Shown piece after piece: positions 4,611-32,794 of a DNA stretch of 50,104 nucleotides (positions are counted from its first letter, which is position 1; each line of letters begins with the position of its first letter). The stretch is from a virus. Taxonomy: Duplodnaviria > Caudoviricetes. A model generated the notes under the pieces. The model was not told where the DNA came from and searched no databases. It saw nothing but the letters and a program-made list of their open reading frames with translations. Where the stretch lies: IMG/VR virus record IMGVR_UViG_3300030045_000003, positions 1-50,104 of that record; one strand, given 5' to 3'. A program made the position numbers and the translations under genes.

Positions 4611-5924
4611 TCAGCCGTTCGCGATGTTGGAGACGGTCAGGTTGACCACGATCTGGTCGAACCCGCGCGCCGGGGTGAACGTCAGCGCCAGGCCGGCGTA
4701 CTTTCCGATGGCGTAATCGCCCGGTTCCTGCACCACGTAGGTGGAGAACGGAATCGCGGTGACGGTCGGCGGCGGCGAGTTCAGCACCATGCCGAAGGCG
4801 ATGCCGTTGTTGACCACCTGTTGCGAGACCTTCTGCAACTGGTTGATGCCGGCCTGGTTGTAGTACAGCGGATTCGTCGGGCTGTTCGACCCGTTGATGA
4901 CCGCGGCCGACAGCGCCATGTCCTGGTTGATGATCATCCAGTCCACGGAGTACCAGAAGTTCCACGGGTTCAGGTCGCCGTACACGCCGTTGACAATCAG
5001 CGTGTTCGAGATGCCGCCCTCGGCGCCCGTGCCCACCCAGTTCAGGCCAGCGGCCTTGTAGGTGGTCGCGTTGGAAGGCGACAGCGTGTAGGGCGTGACG
5101 CCGAACAGGTAGCGGTATTCCAGCGGCGCCACGAGGTTGACCGGGCCGGGATCGGCCGACAACTGGGCGTAGAGCATCGCCGCGGCGCTGAACTCCGTGG
5201 TCGGCGCGCTCGGGGACTGGAGCACGAGGTACGCGGCCTTCGTCGGGATCGTCGCCCAGGCCGAATAGGTCGCCGCCGTCGTCGTGACCAGGAAGTAGGT
5301 CGCCGAGGTCGGCGAATCGTACTGGCGGAACAGCGTCGGCGCCGTGGTCTCCGTGTCCCACGTCATCGGCACGAGGTAGGCGTAGAACTGCTTGGCCGGG
5401 TTCGTCAGGTACGTCGAGAGCGCCGTGACGCCAGCCGCCGGGGTGCCGGCGCCCAGTTCCAGGACGTAGACCGCCTGCGTGTTGCCCTGCGCGAAGAACG
5501 TGTCGCCCATCGCGGTGAGTTCGCTCACCGAGTCAAGCTGGAACGTGCCGAGCGTGGTTTCCGAGCCGGGGTTCGACGCGAGCGGGTAGGTGAACGTGGT
5601 GGCGTTCACTTCCGTGCAGGCAAACGTGCCGTTGTAGCCACTCGGGACGACGCCGGAGATTTGCCCCTGAACGGCGCCGCCGGCCGGGATGCCGTGCGCC
5701 GCTGCGGTCACGACGGTGACGACGCTGGACGTCCAGGAGATGGACGAAATGGCAATCGGCGCCTTCAGCAGAGCGGTCAGGTCGGCATTCTGCGTCAGCA
5801 GCGCCGAAGTGCCCGCCGCCAGCGTCGTGCCGCCCTGCGAGATCAGCGCGCCAGTGCGCTGGAGTTGGCTGGGTGCCGAAGCCACAGCCTCACTCACGTT
5901 GACGATGACGATGGACGTGCTCAT
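4611..5924 (-). CDS. Tail sheath protein (DUF3383-like)
   Basis: 437 aa; C-terminal PLYYNQAGINQLQ...YAGL...RGF pattern of Bcep781-type sheaths; upstream of tube. Confidence 0.8.
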   Translation of the reverse strand: MSTSIVIVNVSEAVASAPSQLQRTGALISQGGTTLAAGTSALLTQNADLTALLKAPIAISSISWTSSVVTVVTAAAHGIPAGGAVQGQISGVVPSGYNGTFACTEVNATTFTYPLASNPGSETTLGTFQLDSVSELTAMGDTFFAQGNTQAVYVLELGAGTPAAGVTALSTYLTNPAKQFYAYLVPMTWDTETTAPTLFRQYDSPTSATYFLVTTTAATYSAWATIPTKAAYLVLQSPSAPTTEFSAAAMLYAQLSADPGPVNLVAPLEYRYLFGVTPYTLSPSNATTYKAAGLNWVGTGAEGGISNTLIVNGVYGDLNPWNFWYSVDWMIINQDMALSAAVINGSNSPTNPLYYNQAGINQLQKVSQQVVNNGIAFGMVLNSPPPTVTAIPFSTYVVQEPGDYAIGKYAGLALTFTPARGFDQIVVNLTVSNIANG

Positions 5925-10502: not shown

Positions 10503-12233
10503 TTAGATGCTTTCCTTTTGCTTGCGGTGGAAACCGCCCTTGGCGAGTTGGGCCGGGGCCTTGAACTCCTCGTACCACGCGCCGGGACGGCCGGCGTAGG
10601 TGGTCACGTTGTGGCCGGTGTCCGGGTCGATGCGGCGGATCGCGCGCAGACCGTCGCCGGAAGGCTGGCCGATCAGGTTCGAGGCCGCGGCAGCGTCGGC
10701 GTAGATTGCGGCTTCGGCCATGTCGAAGGCCACGGAATCCTTGATCGCCGACAGGTCGGACTTCGCCCAGGTCTTGGAGTGCGGCTGCATCTTGCGCAGC
10801 AGGCGCACGCGGTAGGCCATCGGCGTCTCGCCGTCCATCGGACGCGGCGCCGAGACCGAGTGCATCTGGTACACGCTGTCGGCCTTGGCTTGCGCATCGG
10901 CCATCACTTCGGGGTCGGCATCGCACTTCATCGCGGCGTCCTTCTTGGCTTGTTCTTCCTTCTCGAAAGCATCCTTCTTCGCTTCCGCCTCGGCCTTCTC
11001 GTCGGCGTCCTTCTTGGCGTCGAGCTTGGCCTTTTCTTCCTTTTCCTCGGCGTCTTTCTTCGCCTCGGCTTCCTTCTCGTCGGCATCCTTCTTCGAATCG
11101 CCGGCCAACGTTGCGGCGGGCATGTTCTTTTCGAAGGCGTCGAAGCGGGAGGTCACGCTGTCCAGGCGGGCCGCGAAGCCGCTGCTCATGGCCGCAATGG
11201 CCTCCATGACGGTGGAGAGCGAAGCGCCGGCCGGGTCATTCCCGGAGGCTGCGGTCGCGACTTGATCGGGCATGCTTTGTACCTCTTTCAGTTGAACGCC
11301 CATCGGCGGGCCACCTTTGTCCCACACGCCCAATTCGCATACCGCGAGGTGGTCTAGTAGAACCGGATTGCCCTCTATCAGTAGGGGCGCGTCATCGTTG
11401 AGCGGGACTTTAACATTCCCGCTGGATTTCACAAATACGAATCCGGGAGACGTGCTCAATTGCAGCTCCGTCATTTCCCGGGCTGCGTCCATATCGAGGA
11501 TTCGGGCGATGCCCCAGGCGTCCGCGCCGTTGATGTACGGCATGACGATGGTGCCGACGTTGGACTCCCGATAGGACTTGGTGTCCAGCATGCTTTTCTC
11601 GGGGTGCAGCCACACCACCGGCAGGCCGTTGCAGCGCTCCAGGAACTCGGGCGTCAGCACCAGGGATTCATCGCGCCAAGCGTATTCGGCCTCGATCTTC
11701 TCGCCGTTCTCGTCCTCGCGTTCCTTGCGGTAGGCGATGCCCGTGCCGGTGATGCGCAGGGCGAAGTAGACCGAATTCCCGAACGCCTGCGGGCTGGGCA
11801 GGTCGCCGTCGCGGATCAGCTTTGCGAGGTCGGTTTCAGTGTGGGCGGCGGCGATTCGGAAAGCTCGGTCGATTCCGGGATGGAGCGGGGCCGGCGCTTC
11901 TTCGGGGCGGCACCAGGCGTATCCGGTGCTTTCGTCGCACAGCGTGACCTCGAACTTTGCCACTCCTTTGGCAACGAACGTAACAAATCCCTCAGCCTCA
12001 TGAAGGCGTTCCAGCCCGCCCTCGAAGGCTATTCCTGTTTCTTCAAAAAGCTCGCGGATAGCGGCTTCTTGAGGGGATTCTCCGACTTCAATTTTTCCGG
12101 CGGGGAATGCCCACGCCCCGGGGAAGTCTCCGCCATCACCCCTCCTTAGGAGTAGAGTCTCGCCATCGTCCGAGACGAGCATGATCCCGGCCGCATGAGC
12201 GCCAGTTTGATTTGGGTTACCTTGCTCATCCAT
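10503..12233 (-). CDS. Nudix hydrolase domain fused to DUF2213-like prohead protease/scaffold
   Basis: Nudix box GKIEVGESPQEAAIRELFEETG; central LLDHLAVCELGVWDK motif; charged KKDA-repeat scaffold tail. Confidence 0.8.
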   Translation of the reverse strand: MDEQGNPNQTGAHAAGIMLVSDDGETLLLRRGDGGDFPGAWAFPAGKIEVGESPQEAAIRELFEETGIAFEGGLERLHEAEGFVTFVAKGVAKFEVTLCDESTGYAWCRPEEAPAPLHPGIDRAFRIAAAHTETDLAKLIRDGDLPSPQAFGNSVYFALRITGTGIAYRKEREDENGEKIEAEYAWRDESLVLTPEFLERCNGLPVVWLHPEKSMLDTKSYRESNVGTIVMPYINGADAWGIARILDMDAAREMTELQLSTSPGFVFVKSSGNVKVPLNDDAPLLIEGNPVLLDHLAVCELGVWDKGGPPMGVQLKEVQSMPDQVATAASGNDPAGASLSTVMEAIAAMSSGFAARLDSVTSRFDAFEKNMPAATLAGDSKKDADEKEAEAKKDAEEKEEKAKLDAKKDADEKAEAEAKKDAFEKEEQAKKDAAMKCDADPEVMADAQAKADSVYQMHSVSAPRPMDGETPMAYRVRLLRKMQPHSKTWAKSDLSAIKDSVAFDMAEAAIYADAAAASNLIGQPSGDGLRAIRRIDPDTGHNVTTYAGRPGAWYEEFKAPAQLAKGGFHRKQKESI

Positions 12234-28342: not shown

Positions 28343-28726
28343 ATGAGCAACGACATCAAGGAGTTCGAAGACCTGAACGGCCACACGCTGGCGCAGTGCT
28401 TCAAGACCAGCGACGACGGCGAATTGCATTTCGTCTTGGCGGATGGACGGCAGTTCAAGCTGCACCATAACCAGGACTGCTGCGAATCCGTCTACATCGA
28501 GAGCATCGTTGGCGATCTAGCCGACCTCGTTGGATCGCCGCTGACGATGACCGAGGAAGTCAGTAGCTCGGAACTCACGCCAGAACAGATCGAACACCAA
28601 AGCGGATGCGACTCGTTTACTTGGACGTTCTACAAGCTGGCCACGATCAAGGGCTACGTGGACGTTCGCTGGTTCGGTAGCTCGAATGGCTACTACAGCG
28701 AATCCGTCAGCTTCGATCAAATCTGA
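28343..28726 (+). CDS. Conserved phage hypothetical protein
   Basis: HNQDCCESV...TWTFY...T.KG.V...W.G.SNGYYSE pattern; RBS AAGGA. Confidence 0.75.
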   Translation: MSNDIKEFEDLNGHTLAQCFKTSDDGELHFVLADGRQFKLHHNQDCCESVYIESIVGDLADLVGSPLTMTEEVSSSELTPEQIEHQSGCDSFTWTFYKLATIKGYVDVRWFGSSNGYYSESVSFDQI

Positions 28727-28746
28727 CCGCGCTACCGGAGCCTGAC

Positions 28747-29154
28747 ATGGACAACGCCATCGCTTGCCCGTACTGCCATGCGCCTGCCCGGCTGGTGTCG
28801 GGTGAGGCGATCTATCCGCATCGGGTCGATCTCTATGACCTGAAGTTTTGGCAGTGCCAACCTTGCGATGCCTACGTGGGTTGCCACAAGGCGGGTGCGA
28901 TGACCGACACGGGCCGCAGCGATGGAACATTCCCGCTCGGGCGCTTGGCGAATGCGGAACTTCGTCGGGCGAAGTCTGCCGCTCATGCCGCGTTCGATCC
29001 GCTGTGGAAGTCGAAGCGCATGAAGCGCCGCGACGCTTACGGCTGGCTCGCACGCGAACTCGGAATCAGTCGCGACAACTGCCACATCGGCATGTTTGAC
29101 GTTGACGCGTGCAGAGCTGTTGTGGCCGCTGCATCGAACTTCAGGAAGGACTGA
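28747..29154 (+). CDS. Zinc-finger protein (DUF3268-like)
   Basis: CPYC...C..CDAYVGCH...PLGRLANAELR...AH.AFDPLW...CHIGMFD. Confidence 0.8.
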   Translation: MDNAIACPYCHAPARLVSGEAIYPHRVDLYDLKFWQCQPCDAYVGCHKAGAMTDTGRSDGTFPLGRLANAELRRAKSAAHAAFDPLWKSKRMKRRDAYGWLARELGISRDNCHIGMFDVDACRAVVAAASNFRKD

Positions 29155-29155
29155 C

Positions 29156-29551
29156 ATGGACAACGACAAGGGGCTGGGAAGCATGACCAATAGCGCCAGT
29201 GCGGTGGAACGTCTGCGGGCTTCGCTTTTGACATGGGCGGGCCGAGAAGGCTCCATCGTCAATCAAAACGACATCCACGCCGTCCTGGACACCCTCGCCG
29301 AAAAGGAGTCCGAGCTGAAGGGCGCCTACGAGTTGCTGCACGCCACCGAGGACAAGGCTGTCGCCAAGGAGTCCGAAGTGCAGGCTTTGCGGGAGGTCAT
29401 CGACCACACCGTCAAGACCATCGAGAGGCAACTCGACCTGATCGGCGAACGCGCTCCCGGGAAGTTCCTCGACAAGACGCCGGTCATGCGCAGCTTGCAG
29501 GCGCACGTCAAGAGACTGAGCGCCGCCCTCAACCCGAAGGAAGACCAATGA
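29156..29551 (+). CDS. Hypothetical coiled-coil protein; contains the near-perfect target of CRISPR spacer 2
   Basis: RBS AAGGA, ATG 29156; 29179-29210 matches the reverse complement of spacer 2 at 30/32. Confidence 0.7.
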   Translation: MDNDKGLGSMTNSASAVERLRASLLTWAGREGSIVNQNDIHAVLDTLAEKESELKGAYELLHATEDKAVAKESEVQALREVIDHTVKTIERQLDLIGERAPGKFLDKTPVMRSLQAHVKRLSAALNPKEDQ

Positions 29552-29763
29552 CCATCTACAAATTCAACGCGCAAGTCACCATAAGCGTCTACACCGAAGT
29601 CGAGGCCGATAGCGCGTCAGAAGCTTTGGAGATCGCCAAGGAACGAGAAGTCGGGCAGCTGTGCCACAACGCCGTCTACCCTGACTGTGACGAGGCATGG
29701 TTCACCGATGAACTGGATGGCCAGCCCGAAAAGATCACGCTGAACGAGGTTTCCGATGAATGA
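29548..29763 (+). CDS. Small acidic hypothetical protein
   Basis: ATGA overlap, 71 aa. Confidence 0.6.
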   Translation: MTIYKFNAQVTISVYTEVEADSASEALEIAKEREVGQLCHNAVYPDCDEAWFTDELDGQPEKITLNEVSDE

Positions 29764-30247
29764 CACCCCCGCCCCTGGCGAGCCGATCAGCTTGCCTGAG
29801 CCATCTCCCATCGTCGGCGAAGCCGGCCGTAACAGCGTTCGCTGGGGTCTCGGCTACACCGCCGCTCAAGTCCGCAACATCGTTGCAGCCGACCGCGCCC
29901 ATGGTGCTGCGAGCCCTGACGTGACAAAGATGTTGGAGGCGTTGAAACTCGCTCGTCGCACGCTGTCAATGATGAAGCCTTGGGATGCCTACGACGCGGA
30001 GTTGCTTCAGAAGGCAGTCGCCGCCATCGACGCTCTCGGTGCTGCCGCAACCCAGGCGAGGGCTGCTGTGGGGACAGAGCATGGGCGCCGGCTAGTGCGC
30101 GCCCTGGTTCGTGCGGCATGTCTGCAAGAGAGAGAGCCCAGCGAAAAGAACCAAAACGCATACCACTCGGCGCGCGAGACGGTCGAAGCCGCACTCTCTG
30201 CGCAGACCCCTGGCGAGGGGTGGACGGCAAAGGACTCCGAAAAATGA
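29756..30247 (+). CDS. Hypothetical protein
   Basis: 163 aa; its stop overlaps the tnpB ATG. Confidence 0.6.
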   Translation: MNDTPAPGEPISLPEPSPIVGEAGRNSVRWGLGYTAAQVRNIVAADRAHGAASPDVTKMLEALKLARRTLSMMKPWDAYDAELLQKAVAAIDALGAAATQARAAVGTEHGRRLVRALVRAACLQEREPSEKNQNAYHSARETVEAALSAQTPGEGWTAKDSEK

Positions 30248-31344
30248 TCAAGACCCTCCAAGTTCGGGTCAAGGACAAGCATGCGTCCTTGCTGGCAGCG
30301 ATGGCGAGAAACGTCAACACCTGTTGGAACTACTGCAACGAGACCAGCCAGAAGGCGATCCGGGATCGCCGGCAGTTCCTGAGCGGCTATGACCTGCAGA
30401 AGCTCACCGCTGGGTTCACCGCTTGCGATGGTGTTGAGATCGGCGCCGGTACGGTAAATCTGGTGTGCGTCGAGTACGCAAACCGTCGCCGTCAATTCAA
30501 GCGCCAACGGCTCAACTGGCGCGTTTCGAACAAGAACTCTTCCCGCTACTCGCTTGGATGGGTTCCCATGAAAAGCACGGAGATCAGGTATCGGTCGGGC
30601 CAGATCGTCTATGCAGGAGTGGCGTTCAGCCTGTGGGATAGCTACGGTCTGGGCGACTACGCGCTCCGCGCCGGTTCCTTCTCTGAAGACGCACGCGGCC
30701 GGTGGTATTTCAACGTCGCTGTCGAGGTAGCAGCCACCAAGAGCGAGGGCACCAAGGCCGTCGGCATCGACCTAGGTCTGAAGACCGCCGTCACCTGTTC
30801 GGACGGCCAGACTTTCACGGGCCGGCTGTACCGCGCCAGCGAGGCAAAGCTCGCCAAGGCCCAACGCGCTGGCAAGAAGCGCCTAGCGCGGACGGTGCAC
30901 GCCAAGATCAGGAACCAACGCAAGGACGGACTGCACAAGTTCAGCACTGCGCTGGTGCAGGAAAACGCCGCCATCTTCGTGGGCGACGTGAGCAGCAAGA
31001 AGATGCTCAAGACCAAGATGGCCAAGTCCACGCAGGACGCGGGCTGGGCCATGTTCAAGACCATGCTGGAGAACAAGTGCCGTCAGGCAGGCGTGGTGTT
31101 CGAAGTTGTCAACGAGGCATACACAACCCAAACCTGTTCTCAGTGCGGAAGCATTGAGGGGCCGAGAGGTGTCGCAGGTCTTGGAATAAGACGATGGCGA
31201 TGTTCATGCGGGGTCGAACATGACCGCGACGTGAACTCGGCGCAAAACATCGTCCGAATCGGGCTTGATTCGCTAGCTGTAGGAGCCGCCTTGAGCGGAG
31301 AAGCCAATGTCGATGCGGTGTCGGGCCGCTGCATGGGAGCCTGA
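30244..31344 (+). CDS. tnpB: RNA-guided endonuclease TnpB (366 aa), no adjacent transposase
   Basis: WNYCN helix; RuvC-I VGIDLGLK; RuvC-II region FVGDV with downstream VNEAYTT; Zn finger CSQC...CSC; RuvC-III HDRDVNSAQNI; ATG 30244. Confidence 0.92.
   Translation: MIKTLQVRVKDKHASLLAAMARNVNTCWNYCNETSQKAIRDRRQFLSGYDLQKLTAGFTACDGVEIGAGTVNLVCVEYANRRRQFKRQRLNWRVSNKNSSRYSLGWVPMKSTEIRYRSGQIVYAGVAFSLWDSYGLGDYALRAGSFSEDARGRWYFNVAVEVAATKSEGTKAVGIDLGLKTAVTCSDGQTFTGRLYRASEAKLAKAQRAGKKRLARTVHAKIRNQRKDGLHKFSTALVQENAAIFVGDVSSKKMLKTKMAKSTQDAGWAMFKTMLENKCRQAGVVFEVVNEAYTTQTCSQCGSIEGPRGVAGLGIRRWRCSCGVEHDRDVNSAQNIVRIGLDSLAVGAALSGEANVDAVSGRCMGA
31150..31327 (+). ncRNA. Predicted TnpB omega-RNA overlapping the tnpB 3' end; guide predicted from 31308 (5' boundary uncertain)
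   Basis: GGAG-CCGC-CTTGA-GCGG-AGAAGCCAA (31282-31307) resembles an IS200/IS605 right-end hairpin ending in YCAA; the next 16 nt match 32181-32196 (minus strand) at 15/16. Confidence 0.5.
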
Positions 31345-31345
31345 A

Positions 31346-31840
31346 ATGGACTACCAAACTCTTGAAGACGAGTTGCGCGCTGTCTGCGTCGCGGCCGATG
31401 CCGGCGCTGGCGGGTGGGTGCGCACGTCGCGCATCCTGGAAGCCATTGCCGCCCCTACGGCACCCCAGGCAGTGGGAGAGCCGGTGGCGTTCACTGCCGC
31501 ACAGGCAGCTCAGAAACTTGGGAAGACCCAAGACGACCCCGAGGATAAGTTTACTGCCGCACAGGCAGCTCAGAAAGTTCCACCGCACTGGCGCTATCGG
31601 TCATGCTGGTTCACTGCCGCACAGGCAGCTCAGAAAACTGCACCAGCAGCGACCGCAGAGCCGAGCGCCGTGGCGGGGGCAAGGGAGCCTCTGACGGATG
31701 AGCAGATTGATGAGGAATACCTCAACGGCGATCTCCAACCTCAACTTTACGACAGGCAAGGCATGTTTCAGGCCGGCGCCCGCTTCGCTGAGCGCTACCA
31801 CGGCATCGCTTCTCCTGCTGGTGATGGGGGAGCGAAGTGA
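31346..31840 (+). CDS. Small phage protein (164 aa) whose middle is encoded by the CRISPR array
   Basis: RBS GGGAG, ATG 1 nt after the tnpB stop; open through all repeats (FTAAQAAQK x3); stop overlaps the next GTG. Confidence 0.7.
   Translation: MDYQTLEDELRAVCVAADAGAGGWVRTSRILEAIAAPTAPQAVGEPVAFTAAQAAQKLGKTQDDPEDKFTAAQAAQKVPPHWRYRSCWFTAAQAAQKTAPAATAEPSAVAGAREPLTDEQIDEEYLNGDLQPQLYDRQGMFQAGARFAERYHGIASPAGDGGAK
31489..31636 (+). CRISPR. Type I-F CRISPR mini-array: 3 repeats (28 bp), 2 spacers (32 bp), no cas genes or leader
   Basis: Repeats GTT(C/T)ACTGCCGCACAGGCAGCTCAGAAA at 31489, 31549 and 31609 with CTGCC/GGCAG stem. Spacers CTTGGGAAGACCCAAGACGACCCCGAGGATAA and GTTCCACCGCACTGGCGCTATCGGTCATGCTG. 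Confidence 0.97.
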
Positions 31841-32475
31841 TCGCAGCGCTCTACGTCGAAACTGACGGCGCGTACTTCGGCCTGCCTGGCGTAGACCCGT
31901 GGGATGAGCCGCGTGATGCGCGGAAGTACGCCGGCCCGCATCCTGTCGTCGCCCATCCGCCGTGCCAGCGCTGGGGGCGCTTCTGGCATGGAAGCACATT
32001 GAAGCCGCATCAGTTCGAGTTGGGCACGGACGGCGGCTGCTTTGCTGCCGCGTTCAGCGCTGTTCGCACGTTCGGCGGCGTCCTTGAACACCCCGCTGAC
32101 TCGCAAGCATGGCCTGCGTTCCACATTGCCAAGCCGCCTCGGACTGGCGGCTGGATTCGTGCGGACACCATCGGCGCGGACGACACCGCATGGACATGCT
32201 GCGTCTACCAAGGTCACTACGGCCACATTGCGGGCAAGGCAACCTGGCTCCTGGCCTGCGGCCTCAAGCGCGAACAGCTTCCCGAGCTGCGCTGGGGCAA
32301 GACAGAACAGCGCATCCACCCGCGCGCCCTGGAGCTGCACGGCTACGAGAAGGCTAGGCGGATCGGAATGATGGCGATGGTCGGCGGAAAGGACAAGACA
32401 CGCATCCGCAACGCCACGCCGCCCGAGTTCCGGCAGGTGCTCATCGACATCGCCAACCTGGCACGGAAGGACTGA
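31837..32475 (+). CDS. DNA cytosine methyltransferase-like protein (short form)
   Basis: VVAHPPC (motif IV-like), VLEHP (ENV-like), Q..YGH...K.TWL, and terminal TPPEF motifs; lacks a clear FxGxG. Confidence 0.55.
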   Translation: MIAALYVETDGAYFGLPGVDPWDEPRDARKYAGPHPVVAHPPCQRWGRFWHGSTLKPHQFELGTDGGCFAAAFSAVRTFGGVLEHPADSQAWPAFHIAKPPRTGGWIRADTIGADDTAWTCCVYQGHYGHIAGKATWLLACGLKREQLPELRWGKTEQRIHPRALELHGYEKARRIGMMAMVGGKDKTRIRNATPPEFRQVLIDIANLARKD

Positions 32476-32476
32476 C

Positions 32477-32794
32477 ATGACCCCCGAATCATCCCGGCTC
32501 GCGGAAGAAGCGAAGCAACACTACCGGCACGCGATCGCTGACTGCATGTACGGCAAGCAACGCAGCGTGGCAATCCACGGCCAGGCACTCTTTTCGATGA
32601 TCGACCGACTTGCAGCTCTGGCATCCAGCCAGGCAAGCGAGCCGGTGGAGGCGCGAGATGGCTTCTACGTGATGCCGCACAAGGCCACGCCGGAGCATCG
32701 GCTTCACCTACAGATCGGCGGAACCATCTGGCGCTACGTGCTTGAGGACGCCGCCCCTCAGTCCAACACGCAGAGCAAGGGAGAAGGCGAGTGA
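32477..32794 (+). CDS. Hypothetical protein
   Basis: RBS AAGGA, 105 aa. Confidence 0.6.
   Translation: MTPESSRLAEEAKQHYRHAIADCMYGKQRSVAIHGQALFSMIDRLAALASSQASEPVEARDGFYVMPHKATPEHRLHLQIGGTIWRYVLEDAAPQSNTQSKGEGE

What the first reader, a model, noticed from the sequence alone, without database searches (positions are those of the whole stretch)
29179..29212. Spacer 2 targets the phage's own gene, but a synonymous base removes the PAM
Seen: the minus strand of 29179-29210 reads GTTCCACCGCACTGGCGCTATTGGTCATGCTT versus spacer GTTCCACCGCACTGGCGCTATCGGTCATGCTG. That is 30/32, with mismatches at PAM-distal positions 22 and 32 and a perfect seed. The 5' flank is AC, not the canonical I-F CC. These bases are positions 2-3 of Arg codon CGT; the synonymous CGG would give the CC PAM. 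Inference: the spacer came from a close relative with CGG and this phage is silently immune. The crRNA is also complementary to the mRNA over the second Met codon (29183), so repression or priming are possible alternatives.
Basis: partly seen in the sequence, partly recalled or inferred. Interest (0 to 1): 0.85.

Follow-up and report, generated by a model that had tools for sequence, protein, structure and literature searches.

The report
Phage mini-CRISPR spacer matching own gene
A peat-soil phage carries a tiny type I-F CRISPR array whose second spacer nearly matches one of the phage's own early genes but lacks the adjacent recognition motif, which is the known pattern for a weapon aimed at sibling phages rather than at the carrier.

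Summary
The window is a complete 50,104-bp phage genome. It carries an orphan type I-F mini-array at 31489-31636 with 3 repeats and 2 spacers of 32 nt. Spacer 2 matches the minus strand of 29179-29210 at 30 of 32 positions, with mismatches at 22 and 32 and 21 contiguous PAM-proximal matches. The flank is AC, not CC. The flank bases are positions 2-3 of Arg19 codon CGT in an early gene (29156-29551), and the synonymous CGG would restore the PAM.

No DNA with a 32/32 match and a CC PAM was found in IMG/VR, JGI metagenomes, GTDB genomes or INPHARED. The only close homologue of the target protein (P0002, from an ENA metagenome contig) has the same first 21 residues except N12D. Asp is what spacer 2 encodes there. 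All three self-versus-spacer differences use rare codons in this phage (CGT is 5% of Arg codons).

The best reading is a virus-borne mini-array used in inter-phage conflict, with the carrier protected by PAM loss. This was described for the archaeal viruses SPV1/SPV2. The finding is a new member of a known kind. Host, crRNA expression and the spacer 1 target remain unknown.

The parts
31489..31516 (+). CRISPR repeat 1 (28 nt, type I-F class)
   Evidence: Rfam RF01317 CRISPR-DR4, 47.5 bits against a cut-off of 35. It forms the 5-bp stem, 5-nt loop hairpin in the fold.
31517..31548 (+). Spacer 1 (32 nt), target unknown
   Evidence: No second match in the window with 3 or fewer mismatches. No exact match in IMG/VR. 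The 4 CC+16-nt hits in IMG/VR were chance matches, 18-23 of 32. The best match in 109 host CRISPR loci was 21 of 32.
31549..31576 (+). CRISPR repeat 2 (28 nt, C4T relative to repeats 1 and 3, outside the hairpin)
   Evidence: Rfam CRISPR-DR4, 44.2 bits. One mismatch to the other repeats.
31577..31608 (+). Spacer 2 (32 nt)
31609..31636 (+). CRISPR repeat 3 (28 nt). No fourth or degenerate repeat follows.
   Evidence: Rfam CRISPR-DR4, 47.5 bits. Only 3 copies in the genome with 3 or fewer mismatches.
29179..29210 (-). Self protospacer, 30 of 32 identical to spacer 2. It covers the third base of codon 8 through the first base of codon 19 of the target gene.
   Evidence: 0 of 100 shuffles; 21 contiguous PAM-proximal matches.
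29211..29212 (-). PAM position. It reads 5'-AC-3' on the protospacer strand (GT on +) instead of CC. These are bases 2-3 of Arg19 codon CGT.
   Evidence: CGT is 5% of Arg codons in 25 ORFs of the phage.
29156..29551 (+). Target gene, 131 aa (P0001), an early-region ORF. The N-terminus is lineage-specific and the C-terminal ~55 aa is a widespread module. The relative P0002 has a weak, sub-threshold Ead/Ea22-like match.
   Evidence: translation; GC3 0.83; no Pfam hit; 101 hits, mostly to residues ~70-127; PF13935, E 0.0023, 18.9 bits against a cut-off of 27, for P0002.

Best explanation
This is an orphan, phage-borne type I-F mini-CRISPR array that borrows the host's Csy/Cascade and Cas2-3 proteins. 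It lies in the rightward early gene block and is probably transcribed by read-through. Host Cas6f would cut the three repeat hairpins to give two mature crRNAs. crRNA 2 is aimed at the 5' coding end of an early gene as it occurs in closely related phages (Asp12 allele, inferred CGG at Arg19, which gives the CC PAM). A cell already occupied by this phage would then destroy a super-infecting sibling. The carrier's own copy is spared mainly because a synonymous third-base change (CGG to CGT) removes the -2 base of the PAM. Two PAM-distal mismatches (positions 22 and 32) add little protection. Shown here: the array, the 30/32 self match, the missing PAM, the synonymous nature of the PAM change, the lack of cas genes on the phage, and a relative with the spacer's allele at protein level. 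Inferred: the relative's CGG codon, crRNA expression and processing, a host with a I-F system, and the competitive effect.
For: (1) Anatomy. There are three Rfam CRISPR-DR4 repeats with 32-nt spacers, and each repeat folds into the Cas6f-type hairpin. Csy4 and Csy3 were not found in the phage. The exact repeat occurs in 109 stretches of GTDB genomes, many of them Burkholderiales and Lysobacterales. All 5 of 5 genomes I checked carry Csy3. (2) Self match. 30 of 32 positions match with an intact seed, against 0 of 100 shuffles, and the flank is AC. (3) P0002 is the only close homologue in 5.8 billion proteins. It equals P0001 over residues 1-21 except N12D, the residue spacer 2 encodes. Of 6 other family members that I chose from 101 hits and aligned, only P0002 shares this N-terminus. 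(4) The self allele uses rare codons at all three differing sites: CGT 19 of 377, GGA 66 of 668, AAT 65 of 302. (5) Literature seen as passages. [quoted passage not shown] Here the target lies 2.3 kb upstream. PMC11656645 states the same as a general rule. PMC4117759 and PMC4678832 give the I-F PAM as protospacer-GG, with about 90% to over 99% of acquired spacers carrying the consensus PAM, and say PAM mutation blocks interference.
Against: No DNA target with CC was found anywhere. IMG/VR gave 0 hits for the 31-nt pattern and 0 for a codon-degenerate pattern. The 2 CC+16-nt hits were chance matches, 19 and 21 of 32. JGI metagenome contigs gave 0 and GTDB genome contigs gave 0. INPHARED blastn of 28700-32500 hit only tnpB and the gene after the array. 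Searches with the target protein found no locus. Two peat runs that cover the protospacer (X7, X8) show no variant there. Spacer 1 has no target. No sigma-70-like promoter or leader was found on the + strand in 28600-32000. The host is unknown. Of 2,935 spacers from 109 same-repeat loci, none matches the phage beyond 19 contiguous nt. A PAM-mutant self target can prime spacer acquisition in I-F (PMC4117759), which would be a cost to the carrier.
Confidence: 0.55

Rival explanations
1. Captured host array fragment, kept as a relic or by-product. A host acquired spacer 2 from an ancestor of this phage that carried the CC PAM. The phage lineage escaped by the PAM mutation. Later a repeat-spacer-repeat-spacer-repeat piece of a host array was picked up by illegitimate recombination. 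The self match then records past host immunity, and the array need not have a present function.
For: Spacer 1 matches nothing related to the phage, as expected for a random neighbouring host spacer. No leader or promoter was found. The repeats are identical to those of many cellular arrays. Short contigs with the same repeat and other spacers occur in the same peat runs (X7 record 10, X9 records 24 and 25). The region is mosaic and carries a tnpB.
Against: The three repeats are nearly perfect and the spacers are exactly 32 nt, so there is no sign of decay. The same array is fixed in the runs that cover it (X7 and X8, no differences). No host array carrying spacer 1 or spacer 2 was found among 2,935 spacers (which searched these loci for spacer-like stretches) or in GTDB genomes. 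Even if the array was captured, the crRNA would still act against CC-bearing relatives, so this rival concerns origin more than function.
Confidence: 0.2
2. RNA anti-CRISPR decoy of the Racr or Cracr type. The repeats soak up Cas6f and Csy proteins, or a spacer reprogrammes them against the host's own cas promoter. The match of spacer 2 to the phage would then be incidental.
For: Solitary I-F repeats in phages act as Racrs (PMC10651486, seen as search listing and abstract start only; PMC11656645 passages). Multi-spacer I-F 'Cracr arrays' in phages are reported in bioRxiv 10.1101/2024.10.29.618823 (abstract, sections 7 and 9). An ENA contig encodes the same ORF with exactly 40 aa (120 nt, two repeat-spacer units) missing, which leaves one solitary repeat (P0105).
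Against: Both spacers are full-length at 32 nt and the repeats are canonical, so normal crRNAs are expected rather than aberrant complexes. Spacer 1 has no CC-flanked seed match of 8 nt or more in the flanks of 109 same-repeat CRISPR loci (each locus is at most 8 kb, so cas promoters are covered only in part). A 30/32 match of spacer 2 to the carrier's own gene family is not explained by a decoy role (0 of 100 shuffles). The single-repeat form may be an assembly collapse, and no such joint appeared in the four runs laid (table 5: none).
Confidence: 0.15
3. Self-regulation. crRNA 2 binds the phage's own gene or its mRNA, since it is complementary to the coding strand over codons 8-19 including Met10. 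It would then tune expression without cleavage.
For: The crRNA is complementary to the sense strand at the 5' end of the ORF. PAM-distal mismatches recall regulatory crRNA-like RNAs (bioRxiv 10.1101/2024.10.29.618823).
Against: Known crRNA-like regulators keep a PAM and PAM-proximal pairing and lose distal pairing. Here the PAM is what is missing, and pairing is nearly complete at 30 of 32. Without a PAM, I-F complexes do not engage dsDNA productively (PMC4678832 passages). The real start is Met1, which has a strong AGGAAGGA site, and P0002 also starts there.
Confidence: 0.05

Closest known systems
Virus-borne mini-CRISPR arrays of Saccharolobus portogloboviruses SPV1/SPV2 (PMC6858448, passages seen)
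   Same: The arrays have 1-2 spacers and no cas genes on the virus, and their repeats match cellular arrays. Spacers are directed at close relatives. The orthologous locus in the carrier has point mutations that prevent self-targeting. The target lies close to the array.
   Different: Here the carrier is a tailed bacterial phage (tail sheath, portal and terminase) and the system is type I-F, not an archaeal type I CRISPR-A repeat. No leader with a promoter was found. The protective change is a synonymous PAM-base change. The reciprocal partner virus has not been found at DNA level.
Phage RNA anti-CRISPRs: solitary repeat units, Racr (PMC10651486, listing and abstract start only; PMC11656645 passages)
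   Same: I-F-type repeats are carried by a phage without cas genes. A possible single-repeat variant of this locus exists (P0105).
   Different: The window has complete repeat-spacer units with 32-nt spacers, which should give functional crRNAs rather than dead-end complexes.
Viral Cracr arrays, crRNA-like regulators that silence host cas or creT promoters (bioRxiv 10.1101/2024.10.29.618823; abstract, sections 7 and 9)
   Same: Multi-spacer I-F arrays occur in phages and hijack host Cas proteins.
   Different: No match of either spacer to the cas-locus flanks I examined. Spacer 2 matches a phage gene, not a host promoter. I did not look for an acrIF24 neighbour.
Classical PAM-escape mutants of phages under type I-F immunity (PMC4117759, PMC4678832; passages)
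   Same: A single PAM-base substitution leaves the protospacer nearly intact.
   Different: The crRNA is encoded by the same genome as the escaped target, so the 'escape' protects against the phage's own array.

Membership tests
Type I-F CRISPR array | 28-nt repeats of the CRISPR-DR4 / I-F class ending in ...GAAA, with the Cas6f hairpin | tested here: met
   Three Rfam RF01317 hits above the gathering score. Each repeat forms a 5-bp stem and 5-nt loop.
Type I-F CRISPR array | Spacers of about 32 nt with a regular 60-nt period | tested here: met
   Repeat starts at 31489, 31549 and 31609, with two 32-nt spacers.
Type I-F CRISPR array | The repeat is associated with Csy (I-F) cas genes in cells | tested here: met
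   The exact repeat occurs in 109 genome stretches. 5 of 5 such genomes tested have Csy3 over the Pfam cut-off.
Type I-F CRISPR array | Adjacent cas genes and a leader | tested here: not met
   No Csy4 or Csy3 in the 50-kb phage. No promoter-like site on the + strand in 28600-32000. It is an orphan array.
Virus-borne mini-CRISPR array for interviral conflict | 1-2 spacers, carried on a virus genome, without cas genes | tested here: met
   The record is a complete virus with direct terminal repeats. It has 2 spacers and no Csy3 or Csy4.
Virus-borne mini-CRISPR array for interviral conflict | The spacer matches a closely related virus, ideally 100% with a PAM | tested here: inconclusive
   Protein level only: P0002 carries the spacer-encoded Asp12 and is otherwise identical over residues 1-21. 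No DNA match was found.
Virus-borne mini-CRISPR array for interviral conflict | The carrier's orthologous locus is mutated so that it is not targeted | tested here: met
   AC instead of CC, plus 2 mismatches. That AC blocks interference comes from the literature and was not tested here.
Virus-borne mini-CRISPR array for interviral conflict | The repeat is identical to the array of the actual host | not testable with these tools
   The host is unknown. None of 2,935 spacers from same-repeat loci matches the phage. Same-repeat fragments occur in the same peat runs.
Racr (solitary repeat RNA anti-CRISPR) | A single repeat unit without a full spacer and second repeat | tested here: not met
   The window has three repeats and two full spacers. 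Only the ENA variant P0105 would fit, and it may be an assembly artefact.
Cracr (viral crRNA-like regulator) | PAM-flanked, PAM-proximal partial match to a host cas or creT promoter | tested here: inconclusive
   For spacer 1 there was no CC plus seed of 8 nt or more in 109 loci of at most 8 kb each. The true host locus is unknown.

The most novel reading that the evidence does not exclude
The locus may be caught switching between a solitary repeat (an anti-CRISPR decoy) and a two-spacer mini-array. An ENA contig encodes the same reading frame with exactly two 60-nt units missing. If that form is real and ancestral, host Cas1-Cas2/3 inserted spacers into a phage-borne solitary repeat during co-infection. 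That would turn a decoy into a weapon against sibling phages. The PAM-less self match would then be what remains when the competitor and the carrier share the gene.
Probability: 0.12. Interest if true: 0.65.

Novelty: new member of a known kind. Interest (0 to 1): 0.38.

Why it matters
Experimental support for virus-borne mini-arrays as tools of virus-against-virus competition comes from archaeal viruses. Clean bacterial type I-F cases are mostly database statistics. This genome is complete and has one clear array, one clear self-locus and a single synonymous base that separates 'target' from 'self'. That makes a compact, testable model, since CC and AC can be compared directly in any laboratory I-F strain. 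It also raises a question that can be tested: how does a phage tolerate a PAM-mutant self target that should prime the host's adaptation machinery?

Tried and rejected
Searches for the 32/32, CC-flanked source of spacer 2 all failed.
- IMG/VR: the 31-nt pattern with N at position 22 gave 0. A codon-degenerate pattern of the encoded peptide gave 0. CC plus the first 16 nt gave 2 hits, 19 and 21 of 32, both chance.
- JGI metagenome contigs: the degenerate pattern gave 0.
- GTDB genome contigs: the degenerate pattern gave 0.
- The degenerate pattern would miss Ser TCN codons and any amino-acid change.
- The search for related loci with P0001 in viral and metagenome contigs and with P0002 in viral contigs: pattern hits were found, but none was confirmed.
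- INPHARED blastn of 28700-32500: 13 records matched, none over the target gene or the array.
- The genome search with P0002: 0 of 5 same-repeat genomes. 1 of 401 genomes of the order of G002 matched weakly (E 6.6e-4, residues 26-84, not the N-terminus).

Spacer 1 gave no second match in the window, none in IMG/VR, 4 chance hits for CC plus 16 nt, and nothing in 109 host loci.

Host assignment by spacers failed. 2,935 spacers gave 8 short alignments of 18-22 nt, the best being 19 of 19 contiguous. The flanks of those loci share no DNA with the phage and only weak tblastx matches.

Reads. All 12 runs found are peat metagenomes. In the four runs laid, there was no variant at the protospacer or PAM in the two runs that cover it (X7, X8), and no joint that skips spacers. 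X9 and X12 do not cover 29179-29212.

I rejected the idea that the array being 'inside an ORF' (31346-31840) is meaningful. The repeat is open in all three forward frames, and other frames also run through the array. The codon-position GC signal of the flanks is weak. No homologue exists other than the phage's own variants.

I rejected the array being cargo of the adjacent tnpB element. Contigs in X8 and X9 share the sequence from 31388 onward but differ upstream. The 100 nt before repeat 1 therefore belong to the phage lineage, not to the IS.

Supplementary tables of the papers (for example the lists of Cracr arrays and of mini-arrays) were not opened. They may already list this IMG/VR record.

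Full report
OBSERVATION. The window is a complete virus record of 50,104 bp with direct terminal repeats. Spacer 2 lies at 31577-31608 on the + strand. It has one other match in the genome with 3 or fewer mismatches, on the minus strand at 29179-29210, with 2 mismatches. In 100 dinucleotide-preserving shuffles no such second match appeared. The mismatches are at spacer positions 22 and 32, and 21 contiguous bases match from the PAM-proximal end. The two bases 5' of the protospacer are AC. On the + strand these are bases 2-3 of codon 19 (CGT, Arg) of an ORF that starts at 29156 behind AGGAAGGA. CGG would encode the same residue and create the CC PAM. One detail is new. The position-22 mismatch is non-synonymous (self AAT for Asn12, spacer GAT for Asp), while the position-32 mismatch is synonymous (GGA versus GGC, Gly8).

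THE ARRAY. There are three 28-nt repeats at 31489, 31549 and 31609, and the middle one has a C4T change. They are separated by two 32-nt spacers. All three pass the Rfam CRISPR-DR4 gathering score. Each forms the 5-bp stem and 5-nt loop typical of Cas6f substrates. The fold of the whole stretch is not unusual (z = -1.03; 26 of 200 shuffles fold as well). There is no fourth or degenerate repeat. The phage has no Csy4 or Csy3. The exact repeat occurs in 109 stretches of GTDB genomes, many from Burkholderiales (Polaromonas, Ideonella, Ramlibacter, Acidovorax and others) and Lysobacterales. All 5 of 5 such genomes tested carry Csy3. This is therefore an orphan type I-F mini-array that can only work with a host's Cas proteins. 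It lies in the rightward early block, which also holds RecT, a DUF3268 zinc-finger protein, the target gene, two small ORFs, tnpB, the array and a phrog_12600 gene. No sigma-70-like promoter was found on the + strand between 28600 and 32000, so read-through transcription is the likeliest source of pre-crRNA. That last point is an inference.

THE PHAGE AND ITS HABITAT. The structural genes (tail sheath, portal, large terminase, baseplate, tail fibre) mark a myovirus-type tailed phage. Its terminase is at most 52.8% identical to any INPHARED phage. GC content is 63%. All 12 sequencing runs that hold the 28700-32500 stretch are peat metagenomes. The host is unknown. None of the 2,935 spacers extracted from the 109 same-repeat loci matches the phage beyond 19 contiguous bases.

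THE TARGET GENE AND ITS RELATIVES. P0001 (131 aa) has no Pfam, PHROG or NCBIfam assignment. An exhaustive HMMER search gave 101 proteins at E of 1e-3 or better, nearly all matching only the C-terminal ~55 residues. I aligned the six hits whose match reached furthest toward the N-terminus. Only P0002 shares the N-terminal region that holds the protospacer. P0002 (152 aa, on one ENA contig of 3,121 bp) is a mosaic relative. Residues 1-21 are identical to P0001 except N12D. Then comes an insert with a weak, sub-threshold Ead/Ea22-like match (PF13935, E 0.0023). After that comes an identical 36-residue stretch. Asp at position 12 is exactly what spacer 2 encodes. A relative with the spacer's allele therefore exists, at least at protein level. 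The agreement is unlikely to be chance. One of about 11 codons under the spacer and one of three possible substitutions at that base coincide, roughly 1 in 30.

Codon usage adds a second indirect line. In 25 confident ORFs of the phage, CGT is 19 of 377 Arg codons (5%) against 66 for CGG. GGA is 66 of 668 Gly codons against 446 for GGC. AAT is 65 of 302 Asn codons. The self locus carries the rare, A/T-ending variant at all three differing sites. That is what one expects if the self locus is the derived, mutated state.

WHAT COULD NOT BE SHOWN. The direct test is a 32/32 match with CC in a relative, and it came back empty in every DNA collection available. The tool that could fetch the contig encoding P0002 was closed. 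In the two peat runs that cover the protospacer (X7, X8) the contigs are identical to the window. Contigs do drop rare variants. Spacer 1 has no identifiable target.

MECHANISM. Three sets of passages bear on it. Richter et al. 2014 (PMC4117759) define the I-F PAM as 5'-protospacer-GG-3' on the target strand, which is CC before the spacer-identical strand. Fewer than 10% of new spacers lack it. They also show that a target lacking the consensus PAM escapes interference but primes new spacer acquisition. Vorontsova et al. 2015 (PMC4678832) report over 99% GG selectivity and state that PAM point mutations inactivate defence even with a perfect match. Medvedeva et al. 2019 (PMC6858448) describe virus-borne mini-arrays of 1-2 spacers that target close relatives. 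[quoted passage not shown] A 2024 review (PMC11656645) gives this as the general rule for viral mini-arrays.

The present case fits that description point by point. The array is small and orphan, the target lies 2.3 kb away, a sibling allele matches, and a point change disarms the self site. My best explanation (confidence 0.55) is an inter-phage exclusion device. Its crRNA 2 attacks CC-bearing sibling alleles, and the carrier is spared by the synonymous loss of the -2 PAM base. The two distal mismatches (positions 22 and 32) are not at the flipped-out every-sixth positions. That positional rule is my recollection of I-F Cascade structure and comes from no call. On their own they would probably not block interference.

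RIVALS.
- The array may be a captured piece of a host array that records past immunity which the phage escaped (0.2). This differs mainly in origin, because the crRNA would still hit CC-bearing relatives.
- It may be an RNA anti-CRISPR decoy or a Cracr-type regulator (0.15). In its favour is P0105, an ENA-derived protein identical to the frame through the array but lacking exactly 40 residues. That equals two repeat-spacer units and leaves a solitary repeat. Against it are the canonical 32-nt spacers and the specific self-family match. The single-repeat form may also be an assembly collapse, and no such joint was seen in the four runs laid.
- Self-regulation of the target gene or its mRNA (0.05) lacks the PAM that known crRNA-like regulators keep.

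CAVEAT ON 'SILENT' IMMUNITY. A PAM-mutant but otherwise matching self target is the configuration that triggers priming in a native I-F system. If the host has Cas1 and Cas2-3, the carrier's own crRNA could direct spacer acquisition from the carrier. Whether the A at the -2 position abolishes binding enough to prevent this is not known from my calls and needs the assay listed under next steps.

SURROUNDINGS. A full-length tnpB (Cas12f1-like TNB plus OrfB_IS605 domains, 30244-31344) sits directly upstream. It is about 67% identical in DNA to transposase genes of Ralstonia phages. Contigs in runs X8 and X9 match the window up to 29307 and again from 31388, with different sequence between. A mosaic relative in the same habitat therefore lacks the 3' part of the target gene, the small ORFs and tnpB. 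It keeps the sequence just before the array. The open frame through the array (31346-31840) is probably not informative. The repeat is open in all three forward frames, the codon-position GC signal is weak, and there are no homologues beyond the phage's own variants.

VERDICT. [quoted passage not shown] Interest is moderate (0.38). A specialist would recognise the pattern, but the locus is a neat, directly testable model.

Noticed in passing
window 31489-31636, compared with protein P0105 (ENA contig of 602 nt): A metagenome-derived protein is identical to the frame through the array but lacks exactly 40 aa, which is 120 nt or two repeat-spacer units. It leaves one solitary repeat. This is either a real solitary-repeat variant of the phage or an assembly collapse. 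No such joint appeared in the four runs laid.
   Followed up: partly
window 29307 and 31388: Contigs in peat runs X8 and X9 share loose ends at these two places. A mosaic relative matches the window up to 29307 and again from 31388 but has other sequence between, so it lacks tnpB and the 3' part of the target gene.
   Followed up: partly
window 30244-31344 (+): An intact-looking IS605-family tnpB (Pfam Cas12f1-like TNB and OrfB_IS605) lies directly upstream of the array. It is about 67% identical in DNA to transposase genes of Ralstonia phages (Heva, Dimitile, Hyacinthe). No tnpA was seen, and the ends of the element were not defined.
   Followed up: partly
L114 (IMG/VR contig of 65.7 kb), position 2238-2265; L113 (IMG/VR contig of 68.8 kb), position 4810-4837: Two other viral contigs carry the identical 28-nt I-F repeat. 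L114 has a solitary repeat behind an A-rich stretch and looks like a Racr-type unit. L113 has one forward repeat next to repeats on the opposite strand.
   Followed up: no
window 29366-29536 (residues ~71-127 of P0001): The C-terminal ~55 residues of the target protein form a module found at the N- or C-terminus of many proteins of 52 to 784 aa (101 hits at E of 1e-3 or better). It has no Pfam family, so it may be an uncharacterised phage domain.
   Followed up: partly
window 10503-12233 (-): A 576-aa protein (phrog_6216) has an N-terminal Nudix-hydrolase-like stretch. It also has imperfect tandem DNA repeats of about 33-69 nt at 10915-11095.
   Followed up: no
runs X7 and X9 over window 31486-31637: Short contigs in the same peat samples carry the same or nearly the same I-F repeat with other spacers. 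Organisms with this repeat class therefore co-occur with the phage (records 10, 24 and 25).
   Followed up: no
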